Part shown: positions 51,764-57,068 of the stretch, piece by piece
Layout of the letters: the number at the start of each line of letters is the position of its first letter
How positions within the stretch are numbered: the first letter of the stretch is position 1
Origin: Escherichia phage DCP2
Strand: one strand, 5' to 3'
DNA: 64,000 nucleotides
Sequence record: OR780565.1
Made by a program: the position numbers and the translations under genes
Notes under the pieces: model-generated
Seen by the model: the letters and a program-made list of their open reading frames with translations, nothing else
What the model was told of the DNA's origin: nothing
Database searches by the model: none

Positions 51764-52111
51764 ATGAGCTTTAATTATTACCCTATTCTATTAGAAAAAG
51801 ACGCGAAACAGCCAAAATGGCAGGGTCCTCAGTTTATTAAAGGCGTCTATCAATTAGTAGTTCCTAAAGACAAGATTTATAGTAGTTGTTTCACTGAATC
51901 CGCTTGCAGTATTTTCGGTAATAGTTCTCCGTATTGGAATTTTGATATAAAGCTTGACAGAAATATCGATATTTGGTTGAAAGCTATGGATATTGGCAAT
52001 ATCACGTTTGATGAGAATAATTATCATATTATTGGTCGCTTTTCCAAGCGTGGTAAAGAATTATATTTCACGCCTGAAATTGAAAGAAAATTTGACGCTA
52101 AACCGTATTGA
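51764..52111 (+). CDS. hypothetical protein (115 aa) inserted between frd and td
   Basis: ORF fills a roughly 410 bp gap where T4 frd and td overlap; no recognisable motif. Confidence 0.5.
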   Translation: MSFNYYPILLEKDAKQPKWQGPQFIKGVYQLVVPKDKIYSSCFTESACSIFGNSSPYWNFDIKLDRNIDIWLKAMDIGNITFDENNYHIIGRFSKRGKELYFTPEIERKFDAKPY

Positions 52112-52156: not shown

Positions 52157-53017
52157 ATGAAACAATACCAAGATTTAATTAAAGACATTTTTGAAAATGG
52201 CTATGAAACTGATGACCGAACAGGCACAGGAACAATTGCTTTGTTCGGTACTAAATTACGCTGGGATTTAAGTAAAGGTTTTCCTGCAGTAACGACTAAG
52301 AAGCTCGCCTGGAAAGCTTGCATTGCTGAGCTAATATGGTTTTTATCGGGAAGCACAAATGTCAATGATTTGCGATTAATTCAACATGATTCATTAATTC
52401 AAGGCAAAACAGTCTGGGATGAAAATTACGAAAATCAAGCAAAAGATTTAGGATACCATAGCGGTGAACTTGGTCCAATTTATGGAAAACAATGGCGTGA
52501 TTTTGGCGGTGTAGACCAAATTGTAGAAGTTGTTGATCGTATTAAAAAACTGCCGAATGATAGGCGTCAAATTGTTTCTGCGTGGAATCCAGCTGAACTT
52601 AAATATATGTCATTACCGCCTTGTCATATGTTTTATCAGTTTAATGTGCGTAATGGATATTTGGATTTGCAGTGGTATCAACGTTCGGTAGATGTTTTTC
52701 TTGGTCTTCCATTTAATATTGCATCATATGCTGCGTTAGTTCATATTGTAGCTAAGATGTGTAATCTTATTCCAGGAGATTTGATATTTTCTGGTGGTAA
52801 TACTCATATCTATATGAATCACGTAGAACAATGTAAAGAAATTTTGCGTCGTGAACCTAAAGAGCTCTGTGAACTGGTAATAGGCGGATTGCCTTATAAA
52901 TTCCGCTATCTTTCTACTAAAGAACAATTGGAATACATTCTTAAACTCAGGCCTAAAGATTTCGTTCTCAAAGATTATCAGTCCCATGGTGTCTTGAAAG
53001 GAAAAATGGCGGTGTAA
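52157..53017 (+). CDS. td: thymidylate synthase, intronless
   Basis: 286 aa continuous ORF with conserved TS core (LPPCHMFYQF). Confidence 0.93.
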   Translation: MKQYQDLIKDIFENGYETDDRTGTGTIALFGTKLRWDLSKGFPAVTTKKLAWKACIAELIWFLSGSTNVNDLRLIQHDSLIQGKTVWDENYENQAKDLGYHSGELGPIYGKQWRDFGGVDQIVEVVDRIKKLPNDRRQIVSAWNPAELKYMSLPPCHMFYQFNVRNGYLDLQWYQRSVDVFLGLPFNIASYAALVHIVAKMCNLIPGDLIFSGGNTHIYMNHVEQCKEILRREPKELCELVIGGLPYKFRYLSTKEQLEYILKLRPKDFVLKDYQSHGVLKGKMAV

Positions 53018-53040
53018 TTAATTATTAATTGTGAGGATAT

Positions 53041-53304
53041 ATGATTTTACGATTTAAAGATACTTCTGGTGTAGTTCTTTTTACACTTCCTAATCCAAGT
53101 GAGCTAGAAGTTCCAGGACCAAATCAGCCTATTATCATTTATGGCAAAAAATATTATACTCATAAAATGACTCGTGAGTATTTTGATAATAAAATTTCCA
53201 CAGTTAAAACTTCTTCTGACTGTTACTACGATATTACTGTTTTAACGGAAAAACAATATGCCGAATTATCACCGCGCGGGCCGTCTATGTCGGGTAGTGA
53301 ATAA
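53041..53304 (+). CDS. hypothetical protein (87 aa)
   Basis: GAGGATAT RBS. Confidence 0.5.
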
Positions 53305-53587
53305 ATACAAATCCGACTTTGATGTTAATATTCACCGTGGTACATTTTGGGGAAATTACGTCGGTAAAGATGCTGGCAGCCGGGAGGTTGCCATTGAATT
53401 ATTCAAAAAAGATTTTATACGTCGAATTAAATCCGGAGAAATAACTAAAGCACATTTAGAGCCTTTACGTGGAATGAGGCTAGGATGCACATGTAAACCA
53501 AAGCCGTGTCATGGTGATATAATAGCTCATATAGTTACCGATTGTTTAAAGACGATTTTCAAGTTGAGGACTTATGCAATTAATTAA
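53258..53587 (+). CDS. hypothetical protein with CxCxPxxCHGD motif (DUF4326-like), start uncertain
   Basis: Motif [14 protein letters not shown]; overlaps upstream ORF by 47 nt. Confidence 0.45.
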
Positions 53588-55838
53588 TGTTATCAAAAGT
53601 AGTGGTGTTTCTCAGAGCTTTGACCCGCAAAAAATTATTAAAGTTTTATCTTGGGCAGCTGAGGGAACATCAGTAGATCCTTATGAATTATATGAAAATA
53701 TTAAATCTTATCTCCGTGATGGAATGACAACTGATGATATTCAGACTATTGTCATTAAGGCTGCTGCGAATTCTATTTCGGTTGAAGAGCCTGATTATCA
53801 ATATGTAGCTGCACGTTGTCTAATGTTCGCTCTTCGTAAGCATGTTTATGGGCAGTATGAACCGCGTTCATTTATTGACCATATTTCTTACTGTGTAAAT
53901 GAAGGTAAATATGACCCTGAATTATTGTCAAAATATTCAGCAGAAGAAATTACATTTTTAGAATCAAAAATTAAGCACGAGCGGGATATGGAATTTACTT
54001 ATTCCGGGGCGATGCAATTAAAAGAAAAATATTTAGTTAAAGATAAAACCACTGGTCAAATTTATGAAACTCCTCAGTTTGCATTTATGACTATTGGAAT
54101 GGCATTGCATCAAGATGAACCTGTTGATAGATTAAAACATGTTATTCGTTTTTATGAAGCAGTATCTACTCGACAGATTTCATTACCAACTCCTATTATG
54201 GCTGGTTGCCGTACTCCAACTCGGCAGTTTAGTTCATGCGTTGTTATTGAGGCAGGTGATTCATTAAAGTCTATTAATAAGGCTTCTGCTTCAATTGTTG
54301 AATATATCTCCAAACGTGCTGGAATTGGTATTAACGTTGGTATGATTCGTGCCGAAGGTTCTAAGATTGGCATGGGTGAAGTGCGTCATACTGGTGTTAT
54401 TCCTTTTTGGAAACATTTTCAGACTGCTGTTAAATCATGCTCACAGGGCGGAATTCGTGGCGGCGCTGCTACTGCTTATTATCCTATTTGGCATTTGGAA
54501 GTTGAAAATCTTCTCGTTTTGAAAAATAACAAAGGCGTAGAAGAAAACCGCATTCGTCATATGGATTATGGTGTTCAACTGAATGATTTGATGATGGAAC
54601 GATTCGGAAAGAACGATTACATTACTTTGTTCAGTCCACATGAAATGGGTGGCGAGCTTTATTATTCTTATTTTAAAGACCAAAACCGTTTCCGTGAATT
54701 ATACGAAGCAGCAGAAAAAGACCCTAATATTCGTAAAAAGCGTATTAAAGCCCGTGAACTATTTGAATTGCTCATGACTGAACGTTCAGGAACCGCAAGG
54801 ATTTATGTGCAGTTCATTGATAATACGAATAACTATACTCCGTTTATTCGTGAAAAGGCGCCTATTCGTCAGAGTAACTTGTGTTGTGAAATTGCTATTC
54901 CAACAAATGATGTGAATAGTCCTGATGCTGAAATTGGATTGTGTACTCTCTCTGCATTCGTACTAGATAATTTTGACTGGCAAGACCAAGATAAAATTAA
55001 TGAATTGGCAGAAGTTCAAGTTCGTGCTCTTGATAATCTTTTGGATTACCAAGGATATCCAGTTCCTGAAGCAGAAAAAGCTAAAAAGCGTCGTAACCTC
55101 GGTGTAGGTGTTACTAACTATGCAGCTTGGCTGGCAAGTAACTTTGCTTCTTATGAAGATGCTAACGATTTAACACATGAACTATTTGAGAGATTACAGT
55201 ATGGACTCATTAAAGCATCCATTAAACTCGCCAAAGAAAAAGGACCTTGCGAATATTATTCAGACACTCGTTGGTCTCGAGGCGAATTACCTATTGACTG
55301 GTACAATAAAAAGATTGACCAAATCGCAGCTCCAAAATACGTTTGTGACTGGTCGTCGCTGCGGGAAGACCTTAAGCTCTTTGGCATCCGTAATAGCACA
55401 TTATCAGCACTTATGCCATGTGAGTCATCTTCCCAAGTTTCTAACAGTACAAATGGTATCGAGCCTCCACGTGGACCAGTCTCTGTTAAAGAATCAAAAG
55501 AGGGTTCCTTCAATCAAGTCGTGCCCAATATTGAACATAACATAGACCTCTATGATTATACATGGAAATTAGCTAAGAAAGGTAATAAACCTTATCTTAC
55601 GCAGGTAGCTATTATGCTGAAATGGGTATGTCAATCAGCTTCAGCGAATACATATTATGACCCACAGATTTTTCCAAAAGGAAAGGTTCCAATGTCAATA
55701 ATGATTGATGACCTTTTGTATTTTTGGTATTTTGGCGGAAAAAATTTCTATTATCATAATACCCGTGATGGTTCTGGTACTGATGATTATGAAATAGAAA
55801 CTCCAAAAGCTGAAGATTGTTCATCCTGTAAATTATGA
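53574..55838 (+). CDS. nrdA: ribonucleotide reductase large subunit
   Basis: 754 aa; ATP-cone N-terminus and class Ia RNR catalytic core. Confidence 0.93.
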   Translation: MQLINVIKSSGVSQSFDPQKIIKVLSWAAEGTSVDPYELYENIKSYLRDGMTTDDIQTIVIKAAANSISVEEPDYQYVAARCLMFALRKHVYGQYEPRSFIDHISYCVNEGKYDPELLSKYSAEEITFLESKIKHERDMEFTYSGAMQLKEKYLVKDKTTGQIYETPQFAFMTIGMALHQDEPVDRLKHVIRFYEAVSTRQISLPTPIMAGCRTPTRQFSSCVVIEAGDSLKSINKASASIVEYISKRAGIGINVGMIRAEGSKIGMGEVRHTGVIPFWKHFQTAVKSCSQGGIRGGAATAYYPIWHLEVENLLVLKNNKGVEENRIRHMDYGVQLNDLMMERFGKNDYITLFSPHEMGGELYYSYFKDQNRFRELYEAAEKDPNIRKKRIKARELFELLMTERSGTARIYVQFIDNTNNYTPFIREKAPIRQSNLCCEIAIPTNDVNSPDAEIGLCTLSAFVLDNFDWQDQDKINELAEVQVRALDNLLDYQGYPVPEAEKAKKRRNLGVGVTNYAAWLASNFASYEDANDLTHELFERLQYGLIKASIKLAKEKGPCEYYSDTRWSRGELPIDWYNKKIDQIAAPKYVCDWSSLREDLKLFGIRNSTLSALMPCESSSQVSNSTNGIEPPRGPVSVKESKEGSFNQVVPNIEHNIDLYDYTWKLAKKGNKPYLTQVAIMLKWVCQSASANTYYDPQIFPKGKVPMSIMIDDLLYFWYFGGKNFYYHNTRDGSGTDDYEIETPKAEDCSSCKL

Positions 55839-55889
55839 TATAATTTGACTCATGGACGAGTCACTATCTATTAACTAAGTGGAAAATTT

Positions 55890-57068
55890 ATGAGCACAGT
55901 TTTTAATACAAATCCAGTTGATGTTTTAAAAGAACCTATGTTTTTTGGTTCAGGTCTTGGTATTGCGCGTTATGATATTCAACGTCATAAAGTTTTTGAA
56001 GATTTAACCGAAAAGCAGTTGTCATTTTTCTGGCGTCCTGAAGAAGTAAACTTAATGATGGATGCTGCGCAATTTAATAAGCTTCCTCAGTATCAGCAAA
56101 ATATTTTTACTAATAACCTGAAGTATCAATCACTTTTGGATAGCATTCAGGGTCGTGCGCCGTCTGCTGTACTTATGTCATTAATTTCAGACCCAAGCCT
56201 TGATACATGGGTTGCTACGTGGACTTTTAGTGAAACTATTCACAGCCGTTCATATACACATATCATGCGAAATCTTTATACTGATCCATCGAAAGTATTT
56301 GATGAAATTGTATTAGATGAAGCTATTATGAAACGTGCTGAATCCATTGGACGTTATTATGATGATGTTCTTAAGAAAACCCGTGAATGGGAAAATGCTA
56401 AAGAATTTGTAGAACTAGCTAAAGAATCTCCTGATGCTGATTTTCGTTTAAATCGAGCTATTAAACAAGAAGCCGAAGCTAAACGAGCACTAATGAAATC
56501 TCTTTATCTTTGCCTTCATGTAATCAATGCATTGGAAGCTATTCGTTTTTATGTATCTTTCGCATGTACCTTTAACTTCCATAAGAACATGGAAATCATG
56601 GAAGGTAATGCCAAGATTATGAAGTTCATTGCGCGTGATGAGCAGCTTCACCTTAAAGGCACTCAATATATTATTCGTCAACTTCAACTTGGCACTGATG
56701 GTGATGAATGGGTTAAAATTGCTCAAGAGTGTGAACAAGAAGCAGTTGATATTTTCATGGAAGTTAACCGCCAAGAAAAAGACTGGGCAGTTCATTTATT
56801 TAAAGATGGTGATGTTCCTGGATTAAATACAAATAGCATGTGGAGCTTTATTGATTACTTAACTGTATCTCGTATGAAACAGTGCGGTCTTCCATGCCCA
56901 ATTACTGATGCTCCGGTTAAACATCCGTATCCTTGGATTCGTGAATACCTTAATTCTGATAATGTTCAATCCGCGCCGCAAGAAGTAGAACTGTCATCTT
57001 ACCTTGTAGCACAGATTGATAATGATGTTGATGATAAAGTTATGATGAGTTTTAAAAAATATTTTTAA
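55890..57068 (+). CDS. nrdB: ribonucleotide reductase small subunit, intronless
   Basis: 392 aa continuous ORF, ferritin-like di-iron motifs. Confidence 0.92.
   Translation: MSTVFNTNPVDVLKEPMFFGSGLGIARYDIQRHKVFEDLTEKQLSFFWRPEEVNLMMDAAQFNKLPQYQQNIFTNNLKYQSLLDSIQGRAPSAVLMSLISDPSLDTWVATWTFSETIHSRSYTHIMRNLYTDPSKVFDEIVLDEAIMKRAESIGRYYDDVLKKTREWENAKEFVELAKESPDADFRLNRAIKQEAEAKRALMKSLYLCLHVINALEAIRFYVSFACTFNFHKNMEIMEGNAKIMKFIARDEQLHLKGTQYIIRQLQLGTDGDEWVKIAQECEQEAVDIFMEVNRQEKDWAVHLFKDGDVPGLNTNSMWSFIDYLTVSRMKQCGLPCPITDAPVKHPYPWIREYLNSDNVQSAPQEVELSSYLVAQIDNDVDDKVMMSFKKYF

What the first reader, a model, noticed from the sequence alone, without database searches (positions are those of the whole stretch)
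53041..53587. Overlapping ORF pair between td and nrdA, the second with a CxCxPxxCHGD motif
ORFs 53041-53304 and 53258-53587 overlap by 47 nt in different frames. The second contains [14 protein letters not shown], which resembles the DUF4326-type conserved core. The true start is ambiguous (ATG 53258 with weak RBS, or GTG 53297), and a frameshifted fusion with the upstream ORF cannot be excluded.
Basis: seen in the sequence. Interest (0 to 1): 0.4.

Follow-up and report, generated by a model that had tools for sequence, protein, structure and literature searches.

The report
T4 genes nrdA.2 and nrdA.1
The overlapping ORF pair is the already-annotated phage T4 gene pair nrdA.2 and nrdA.1, two separate small genes of untested function rather than a frameshift fusion, and this phage's nrdA.1 copy has a one-base deletion that rewrites its last 15 residues.

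Summary
ORF1 (53041-53304, 87 aa) and ORF2 (53258-53587, 109 aa) overlap by 47 nt in different frames between td and nrdA. ORF2 carries the DUF4326 core motif (Pfam E 2e-21).

The window is a Tequatrovirus, identical here to Escherichia phage ECO07P4. The two ORFs are T4 nrdA.2 (DUF5496) and nrdA.1 (DUF4326). T4 is annotated with the same 47-nt overlap.

The start ambiguity resolves to ATG 53258. A GTG 53297 start would remove Cys11, which is invariant, and Arg12 and Val13, which are nearly invariant, in 51 T4-like homologues.

A frameshift fusion is not supported:
- No fused protein appears among 5.8 billion sequences.
- A conserved TAA lies 5 codons upstream of the ATG.
- There is no slippery site.
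- In Mosigvirus the two genes abut with a 1-nt overlap.

The overlap covers the poorly conserved, low-confidence ends of both proteins and probably arose from a junction deletion.

It replaces the conserved C-terminus of NrdA.1. Other Tequatroviruses carry independent nrdA.1 frameshifts.

Function is untested. Recurrent fusions to SLOG, NADAR, Macro and TIR domains favour an enzyme acting on ribose-phosphate or ADP-ribose-type nucleotides. The finding is known and of low interest.

The parts
52157..53017 (+). td (thymidylate synthase), intronless. This is the upstream neighbour.
   Evidence: ORF list. Annotated as thymidylate synthase in the identical record OP172787.1.
53033..53037 (+). Shine-Dalgarno GAGGA of nrdA.2
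   Evidence: Read from the sequence. Duplex with the anti-SD is -6.0 kcal/mol.
53041..53304 (+). nrdA.2 (ORF1, 87 aa), Pfam DUF5496. Small beta-rich protein of unknown function.
   Evidence: Pfam E 1.9e-57. Corresponds to T4 nrdA.2, 142951-143214. AF2 model has mean pLDDT 79, five strands and one helix, and a low-confidence tail (residues 83-87 below pLDDT 50).
53243..53245 (+). TAA in the nrdA.1 frame, 5 codons upstream of its ATG. It limits any fusion to a shift within 53246-53304.
   Evidence: conserved in 12 of 12 Tequatrovirus sequences.
53247..53249 (+). Weak Shine-Dalgarno (GGA) 8 nt upstream of the nrdA.1 ATG
   Evidence: -3.5 kcal/mol. The surrounding RNA is not structured (z = +1.0).
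53258..53304 (+). 47-nt overlap of nrdA.2 (codons 73-87 plus stop) and nrdA.1 (codons 1-16)
   Evidence: Nucleotide diversity is 0.071 here against 0.031 and 0.016 in the non-overlapping parts.
53258..53587 (+). nrdA.1 (ORF2, 109 aa as read here), a single DUF4326 domain. Start at ATG 53258.
   Evidence: Pfam E 2e-21. Corresponds to T4 nrdA.1, 142671-142997. Homologue alignment. AF2 model has mean pLDDT 83.
53288..53356 (+). N-terminal conserved block, C11 to N33 (CRVVNKY..D..I.RG..WGN)
   Evidence: Invariant and near-invariant columns.
53297..53299 (+). GTG (Val14), the rejected alternative start
   Evidence: It lies inside the conserved block and the modelled strand at residues 12-15. No usable SD spacing.
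53483..53524 (+). Core motif [15 protein letters not shown]77, C79, C84 and H85 are invariant across the wider DUF4326 family.
   Evidence: In the model it is a strand (74-77), a loop, then a helix (85-106).
53537..53537 (+). Site of a 1-nt deletion (one A where relatives have AA). It frameshifts the last residues of NrdA.1: [16 protein letters not shown] becomes [17 protein letters not shown].
   Evidence: Only 1 of 504 phage records (ECO07P4) has it.
53581..53583 (+). TAA that would end nrdA.1 in the canonical frame (10-nt overlap with nrdA, as in T4). The stop actually read here is 53585-53587.
53574..55838 (+). nrdA (RNR large subunit). Its start overlaps the end of nrdA.1 by 14 nt here.

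Best explanation
These are two separate, co-transcribed small genes of a T4-type phage: nrdA.2 (DUF5496) and nrdA.1 (DUF4326). They lie in the nucleotide-metabolism cluster frd-td-nrdA-nrdB.

Start and overlap. nrdA.1 is translated from ATG 53258, which lies inside the 3' end of nrdA.2. There is no frameshift fusion. I infer that the long overlap is a Tequatrovirus-specific by-product. A short deletion at the gene junction removed the ancestral TAATG stop/start that is still present in Mosigvirus. As a result nrdA.2 now reads on to the next stop, inside the conserved GTGAATAAA of nrdA.1, and nrdA.1 uses the next upstream ATG. The overlapping segment encodes only the variable, low-confidence ends of both proteins.

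Function of NrdA.1. It is a roughly 100-residue single-domain protein with an invariant strand-loop-helix motif, C-x-C-x-P-x-x-C-H-G-D. I infer with about 35% confidence that it is a cysteine-dependent hydrolase, most likely a phosphoesterase, acting on a ribose-phosphate or ADP-ribose-derived nucleotide. NrdA.2 has no inferable function.

This phage's copy. nrdA.1 carries a unique 1-nt deletion at 53537 that replaces the conserved C-terminal 15 residues. This is either a recent damaging mutation or an assembly error.
For: Identity:
- 100% identical to ECO07P4 and 97% to T4 across the pair, with the same annotated 47-nt overlap in T4.
- Pfam DUF5496 at E 2e-57 and DUF4326 at E 2e-21.

Start:
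- C11 is invariant, and R12 and V13 are conserved in at least 90% of 51 homologues.
- Other genera begin MK[LMI]CRVVNKY, three codons before the Cys.
- The ATG and the open frame are kept in 12 of 12 Tequatroviruses.

No fusion:
- ORF2 homologues are 61-125 aa with one domain.
- ORF1 homologues are 55-91 aa, only 14 clusters, none fused.
- The TAA at 53243 is conserved and no slippery motif is present.

Origin of the overlap:
- Against Mosigvirus, the Tequatrovirus junction lacks a 9-nt stretch that in Mosigvirus holds the ATGAAAATG start region.
- Homology of NrdA.2 stops at residue 76.
- The overlap is the most variable segment and falls largely in low-confidence parts of both models: ORF1 residues 83-87 and ORF2 residues 1-3 are below pLDDT 50, block means are 44 (ORF1 81-87) and 60 (ORF2 1-10), but ORF1 73-76 lie in the modelled helix and ORF2 12-15 in a confident strand.

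Function:
- 9,543 family representatives.
- N33, C77, C79, C84 and H85 are invariant in a set at 30-54% identity.
- Of the 58 hits of 140 aa or longer among the best 150, partners are SLOG (mSLOG 8, YAcAr 6), NADAR (4+1), Macro 1, TIR 1, PolA, RNase H and RNA polymerase.
- A published prediction places DUF4326 as a rhodanese-phosphatase clade acting on terminal ribose phosphates of ADPr (PMC9503650, PMC7824862).
- The gene follows frd-td in diverse T4-like contigs.

Deletion.
Against: - No expression or N-terminal data for NrdA.1 were found in the searchable literature, so the start rests on conservation only.
- The SD of ATG 53258 is weak.
- The proposed enzymatic function is untested anywhere.
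- The classical CX5R phosphatase signature is absent (C79-x5-H85 instead).
- Three Cys plus His could equally form a structural metal site.
- Synteny with td and nrdA may reflect shared descent rather than function.
- The direction of the junction indel is inferred from the outgroup state, not shown.
Confidence: 0.8

Rival explanations
1. nrdA.1 starts at GTG 53297 (Val14). The true overlap with nrdA.2 would then be only 8 nt, and the ATG-initiated extension would not be made.
For: The ATG has only a weak SD (GGA, -3.5 kcal/mol). Residues 1-10 are variable and have low confidence. An 8-nt overlap would be typical for this genome.
Against: The GTG codes for Val14 of the conserved VVN motif in all homologues. 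Starting there removes invariant C11 and the conserved R12 and V13, and part of the modelled strand at residues 12-15. It also removes the first three positions of the Pfam match. The nearest G-rich stretch is 2 nt from the GTG. In other genera an ATG sits three codons before the Cys.
Confidence: 0.05
2. A programmed +1 (or -2) ribosomal frameshift within 53246-53304 makes an NrdA.2-NrdA.1 fusion protein.
For: The ORFs overlap by 47 nt and ORF2 is in the +1 frame. The overlap is conserved across Tequatrovirus.
Against: No fused homologue was found in any search. The overlap region has no heptanucleotide slippery site or stop-adjacent shift site and no stable RNA structure (z = +1.0). The overlap is the least conserved part of the pair, the opposite of what is expected for a recoding signal. 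DUF5496 exists only in Tequatrovirus and Mosigvirus, whereas nrdA.1 is found across T4-like phages behind unrelated genes.
Confidence: 0.02
3. NrdA.1 is not an enzyme. It is a small metal-binding (Cys3-His) adaptor or regulator that acts on the neighbouring dNTP-synthesis proteins (Td, NrdA/B).
For: C77, C79, C84 and H85 are invariant. The gene is translationally linked to nrdA (10-14 nt overlap) and follows td in many T4-like lineages. No catalytic fold match was found.
Against: Outside T4-like phages the domain occurs without td or nrdA. It is repeatedly fused to nucleotide and ADPr-processing domains. Other invariant polar residues (N33, R27, D22, D87) suggest a ligand pocket rather than only a metal knuckle. 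Adjacent C84-H85 plus a CxC spacing is unusual for a single tetrahedral zinc site (my own knowledge, not tested).
Confidence: 0.15
4. In this particular phage nrdA.1 is a decaying, non-functional gene: the 53537 deletion is real and inactivating.
For: The replaced C-terminus (VN.LFKD.F..EDL) is conserved across T4-like genera. Only ECO07P4 among 504 records has the deletion. At least five other independent frameshift alleles exist in Tequatrovirus genomes and metagenomes. About 5 of 34 sampled records have a segment length that is off by one.
Against: The Pfam core (residues 11-90) is intact. The tail is not conserved in the wider family. A single-base difference in one assembly could be a sequencing error. 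Several of the other alleles sit in homopolymer runs, which are typical error sites.
Confidence: 0.4

Closest known systems
Phage T4 nrdA.1 (NP_049846, 108 aa) and nrdA.2 (NP_049847, 87 aa)
   Same: Same position between td and nrdA, same strand order, and same 47-nt overlap. DNA identity is 97%. Same start codons.
   Different: The window copy of nrdA.1 has a 1-nt deletion at 53537. It gives 109 aa with an unrelated last 16 residues and a 14-nt instead of 10-nt overlap with nrdA. td is intronless here.
Pfam DUF4326 (PF14216). [quoted passage not shown]
   Same: Full-length domain match. The invariant N, C-x-C, C-H-G-D residues are present. The family-wide fusion partners (SLOG, NADAR, Macro, TIR, replication proteins) were reproduced here.
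   Different: The T4-type proteins are stand-alone, have an extra invariant Cys11 and a subfamily-specific C-terminal tail. No significant structural match to rhodanese or PTP folds was obtained, and there is no CX5R signature.
Pfam DUF5496 (PF17600)
   Same: Full-length match 1-87 at 191.7 bits.
   Different: Nothing differs. The family is essentially this protein and is confined to Tequatrovirus and Mosigvirus.
Mosigvirus (phage moha) nrdA.2-like and nrdA.1 pair
   Same: Same two families in the same order, upstream of nrdA.
   Different: The genes abut through TAATG (1-nt overlap) with a GAGG Shine-Dalgarno. NrdA.1 starts MKMC, and NrdA.2 ends 11 residues earlier in the alignment.

Membership tests
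Pfam DUF4326 (PF14216) | HMM score above the gathering threshold over the whole domain | tested here: met
   76.8 bits against a cut-off of 25. Residues 11-90 match profile positions 1-81 of 82.
Pfam DUF4326 (PF14216) | Family-invariant residues: Asn in the WGN motif and the C-x-C...C-H-G-D loop | tested here: met
   N33, C77, C79, C84 and H85 are invariant in 62 diverse members. G86, D87, R27 and D22 are conserved in at least 90%. All are present in ORF2.
Pfam DUF5496 (PF17600) | HMM score above the gathering threshold over full length | tested here: met
   191.7 bits against a cut-off of 27, matching 1-87 of 87.
T4 nrdA.2/nrdA.1 orthologues | Conserved position td - nrdA.2 - nrdA.1 - nrdA with near-identical sequence | tested here: met
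   (97% column identity to T4).
T4 nrdA.2/nrdA.1 orthologues | Intact reading frame to the canonical C-terminus (..[16 protein letters not shown]) | tested here: not met
   The 1-nt deletion at 53537 shifts the last 15 codons.
Rhodanese-phosphatase superfamily | Fold similarity to rhodanese, Cdc25 or PTP domains | tested here: inconclusive
Rhodanese-phosphatase superfamily | Active-site Cys at the end of a strand, followed by an anion-binding loop and a helix | tested here: met
   The model has a strand at 74-77, a loop holding C77/C79/C84, and a helix from 85. This is topology only; coordinates could not be inspected.
Rhodanese-phosphatase superfamily | C-X5-R signature | tested here: not met
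   The sequence is C79-KPKPC-H85. There is no Arg in the loop in any member.
Rhodanese-phosphatase superfamily | Metal-independent phosphoesterase activity through a cysteinyl-phosphate intermediate | not testable with these tools
   Needs biochemistry.
Programmed ribosomal frameshift fusion | Slippery or shift-prone site in the overlap, usually with a stimulator | tested here: not met
   No such motif in 53246-53304. No stable structure.
Programmed ribosomal frameshift fusion | Fused or single-ORF versions among homologues, and conservation of the overlap | tested here: not met
   No fused proteins. The overlap is the most variable segment.

The most novel reading that the evidence does not exclude
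NrdA.1/DUF4326 is a phage counter-defence or NAD/ADP-ribose-salvage enzyme. It would strip a phosphate (or open a cyclic phosphate) from an ADP-ribose-derived molecule, for example a TIR/Thoeris-type signal or a product of T4's own ADP-ribosyltransferases. Under this reading, the repeated frameshift alleles in Tequatroviruses reflect loss of the gene where the matching host system is absent.
Probability: 0.15. Interest if true: 0.6.

Novelty: already known. Interest (0 to 1): 0.13.

Why it matters
As a sequence feature it matters little. The gene pair and its overlap have been in the T4 annotation for decades, and both proteins already have Pfam families.

Two small practical points follow. 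Annotation pipelines often drop one of the two overlapping genes or call truncated nrdA.1 ORFs, so the ATG start and the frameshift alleles documented here can guide curation. DUF4326 is also a very large family (more than 9,500 representatives at 50% identity) with no solved structure and no tested function, and T4 nrdA.1 would be a tractable model for it.

Tried and rejected
- Sequence and profile searches of the PDB with ORF2, ORF1 and a 62-member DUF4326 alignment found no hits better than E 0.24.
- PADLOC and NCBIfam scans of both proteins gave no hits.
- Literature searches for nrdA.1, nrdA.2 and T4 ribosome profiling found no functional or start-site data.
- The promoter and terminator scan found no terminator between td and nrdA. 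Promoter-like sites were about as frequent as in shuffled sequence (19 against 14.3 +/- 2.8), so no separate transcription unit can be claimed.
- RNA folding around the nrdA.1 start showed no structure beyond shuffled controls.
- The PHROG hit 'ribonucleotide reductase NrdA-like' (phrog_24867, E 8e-6) was set aside. It has no support from Pfam or from the alignments and I take it to be an annotation artefact of the adjacent or overlapping nrdA.
- The small ORFs upstream of nrdA.1 in Moon, KP185 and Acj9 were tested as NrdA.2 homologues and rejected.
- I could not inspect model coordinates, so the distances between the Cys and His residues (metal site or catalytic loop) remain unknown.
- No profile-profile test against rhodanese, PTP or NADAR families was possible with the tools available.

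Full report
**What is in the sequence**

The window region 52900-53700 is 100% identical to Escherichia phage ECO07P4 (Tequatrovirus) and 98-99% identical to many T4-type phages. The ORF list confirms:
- ORF1: 53041-53304, 87 aa, ATG start.
- ORF2: 53258-53587, 109 aa, ATG start.
- Upstream: thymidylate synthase, 52157-53017.
- Downstream: the ribonucleotide reductase large subunit, 53574-55838.

The ORFs share 47 nt, and ORF2 is in the +1 frame relative to ORF1. ORF2 contains [14 protein letters not shown] at residues 76-89.

**Identity**

- ORF1 matches Pfam DUF5496 over its full length (E 1.9e-57).
- ORF2 matches DUF4326 over residues 11-90 (E 2e-21).
- PHROGs gives phrog_2458 and phrog_464, both of unknown function.
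- In the T4 reference genome the same positions are annotated as nrdA.2 (142951-143214) and nrdA.1 (142671-142997), with the same 47-nt overlap.
- The DNA alignment of the window to T4 is 97% identical.

This is a known, annotated gene pair. The overlap is still unusual in length. In 50 kb of the ECO07P4 record it is the longest of 30 overlaps among 76 same-strand neighbouring gene pairs; the median is 4 nt and the next longest are 23 and 14 nt.

**Start codon of nrdA.1**

In the ORF2 frame a TAA lies at 53243. The only start codons before the conserved core are ATG 53258 and GTG 53297.

An alignment of 51 T4-like homologues shows that conservation begins at Cys11. C11, V14 and N15 are invariant, and R12 and V13 are conserved in at least 90%. 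The Pfam match also begins at residue 11. The AlphaFold model places residues 12-15 in a strand, and the block of residues 11-20 has mean pLDDT 94. A GTG (Val14) start would delete these residues.

In Mosigvirus, Moonvirus and Jiaodavirus the protein starts MK[LMI]C, three codons before the Cys. Tequatrovirus has no start codon at that place, so it must use the upstream ATG. This adds a short, variable N-terminal extension: MPNYHRAG here and MTNYSSVG in T4.

The ATG and the open frame from it to Cys11 are kept in all 12 Tequatrovirus sequences compared. Its Shine-Dalgarno is weak (GGA, 8-nt spacer, -3.5 kcal/mol). That is no weaker than those of nrdB (-3.3) or td (-4.0) in the same window. The surrounding RNA is unstructured (z = +1.0). 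I found no experimental start-site data, so this conclusion rests on conservation.

**Fusion by frameshifting**

Several results argue against a fusion:
- Homologues of ORF2 found among 5.8 billion proteins are 61-125 aa and carry only DUF4326.
- Homologues of ORF1 form only 14 clusters, 55-91 aa, with DUF5496 only.
- tblastn shows DUF5496 is confined to Tequatrovirus (90% identity or more, apart from 5 records at 80-90%) and Mosigvirus (35-41% identity over residues 1-76).
- In Mosigvirus the two genes are joined by TAATG with a GAGG Shine-Dalgarno.
- In Moon, KP185 and Acj9 the gene upstream of nrdA.1 is unrelated to DUF5496.
- The 59-nt stretch in which a shift would have to occur has no slippery motif.
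- That stretch is the most variable part of the pair: nucleotide diversity is 0.071, against 0.031 and 0.016 in the non-overlapping parts.

**Origin of the overlap (inference)**

Aligned to Mosigvirus, the Tequatrovirus junction lacks a 9-nt stretch that in Mosigvirus holds the ATGAAAATG start region (the TAATG stop/start junction sits at its edge). It differs in length by a number that is not a multiple of three. The other genera share the Mosigvirus-like start, so the Tequatrovirus state is probably derived.

Loss of the junction would have two effects. nrdA.2 would read on into nrdA.1 until the GTGAATAAA segment, which contains stops in both alternative frames. nrdA.1 would have to initiate at the next upstream ATG.

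Both models fit this for the extreme ends. NrdA.2 residues 83-87 have pLDDT below 50 and the block of residues 81-87 has mean pLDDT 44. NrdA.1 residues 1-3 are below 50 and residues 1-10 have mean pLDDT 60. The overlap also includes more confident parts: NrdA.2 residues 73-76 lie in the modelled helix (70-76) and NrdA.1 residues 12-15 in a confident strand.

The window has one A at 53537 where T4 and the other Tequatrovirus sequences aligned in full have AA. This shifts the frame for the last 15 codons:
- The family-conserved C-terminus [16 protein letters not shown] becomes [17 protein letters not shown].
- The stop moves from 53581-53583 to 53585-53587.

Asn94 and the LFKD..EDL tail are conserved across T4-like genera. 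Of 504 phage records containing this 50-nt segment, only ECO07P4 matches without a gap. The exact protein forms a two-member cluster seen on one contig. Whether this is a real mutation or an assembly error cannot be decided here.

Other Tequatrovirus records carry independent frameshifts in nrdA.1:
- An extra A in an A6 run (PM136).
- An extra T (KarlGJung).
- A missing G (G2540-3).
- A scrambled patch shared by pSe_SNUABM_01 and HY03.
- Metagenomic alleles P0051 and P0060.

In an evenly spaced sample, 5 of 34 full-length records had a segment length other than 548 nt. All the indels I located fall in nrdA.1 and none in nrdA.2. The gene is evidently dispensable for propagation, although some of these indels may be homopolymer sequencing errors.

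**What NrdA.1 may do**

A profile search of 1.84 billion representatives found 9,543 family members at E 0.001 or better. Most are about 100 aa and stand-alone.

In 62 members at 30-54% identity, N33, L70, C77, C79, C84 and H85 are invariant. V14, N15, D22, I25, R27, G32, L75, G76, P81, G86 and D87 are nearly so.

Among the 58 hits of 140 aa or longer in the top 150, the partner domains were:

| Partner domain | Members |
|---|---|
| mSLOG | 8 |
| YAcAr-type SLOG | 6 |
| DprA-like | 4 |
| NADAR | 4 (+1 DarT1-associated NADAR) |
| Macro | 1 |
| TIR | 1 |
| DNA polymerase A | 1 |
| RNase H | 1 |
| T7-type RNA polymerase | 1 |

This reproduces the contextual observation of Iyer, Burroughs, Aravind and co-workers. 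[quoted passage not shown]

My structure-based test of that proposal is inconclusive:
- The AF2 model (mean pLDDT 83) has the expected strand (74-77), loop with C77/C79/C84, and helix (85-106) arrangement.
- Foldseek found nothing below E 1.9.
- No solved relative exists by sequence or profile.
- The CX5R signature is replaced by C79-x5-H85.

The gene follows frd-td in several divergent T4-like contigs. Elsewhere it sits beside a family A DNA polymerase with ThyX further downstream, beside RNase H, or beside unannotated genes. Its link to thymidylate and RNR genes may therefore be inherited synteny rather than a functional link.

I commit to a cysteine-dependent hydrolase of a ribose-phosphate or ADPr-type nucleotide at about 35%. 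I give a non-catalytic metal-binding adaptor about 15%. The rest is unknown.

**NrdA.2**

**Verdict**

However, the pair is the long-annotated T4 nrdA.2/nrdA.1. The start ambiguity resolves to the ATG, and the fusion idea is not supported. The only new details are the ECO07P4-specific C-terminal frameshift and the recurrent disruption of nrdA.1 in the genus.

Novelty: already known. Interest: low.

Noticed in passing
window 53375-53392: There is a near-perfect palindrome GGCAGC-CGGGAG-GCTGCC inside nrdA.1; the window has T at 53388 in the 3' arm. In phage Pu-Krd-SF3 (L016) and in protein cluster P0002 (184 member sequences) the 6-nt loop is exactly inverted (CGGGAG to CTCCCG), changing SREA to SLPA. 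This looks like a hairpin template-switch inversion polymorphism. Allele P0051 has a frameshift at about this position.
   Followed up: partly
window 53305-53573, with L012-L015 and P0051, P0060, P0070: Several independent frameshift alleles of nrdA.1 occur in Tequatrovirus genomes and metagenomes, several of them in short homopolymer runs. No frameshifting indel was seen in nrdA.2 (one metagenomic cluster, P0078, has an in-frame 5-aa deletion). About 5 of 34 sampled records are affected.
   Followed up: partly
window 51764-52111: An extra 115-aa ORF (phrog_1928, unknown function, no Pfam hit) lies between frd and td. In T4 frd and td overlap directly and this ORF is absent.
   Followed up: partly
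window 52157-53017 and 55838-57068: td and nrdB are uninterrupted here: there is no group I intron with I-TevI or I-TevIII as in T4. There is also no mobE or nrdB.1 between nrdA and nrdB.
   Followed up: no
GenBank records BW-1, JLBYU31, teqdroes and HY03 (hits H38, H62, H125, H117): These records carry a feature labelled 'putative prohead core scaffold protein' under the nrdA.2 match (it appears to be nrdA.2). Nothing found here supports that label; it appears to be a propagated annotation error.
   Followed up: no
L022 4308-7355: In a 153-kb metagenomic T4-like contig, the nrdA gene downstream of DUF4326 is split by an HNH/NUMOD4 homing-endonuclease gene.
   Followed up: no
P0093 (352 aa), P0098 (324 aa): Some family members carry two or three tandem DUF4326 domains in one polypeptide.
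   Followed up: no
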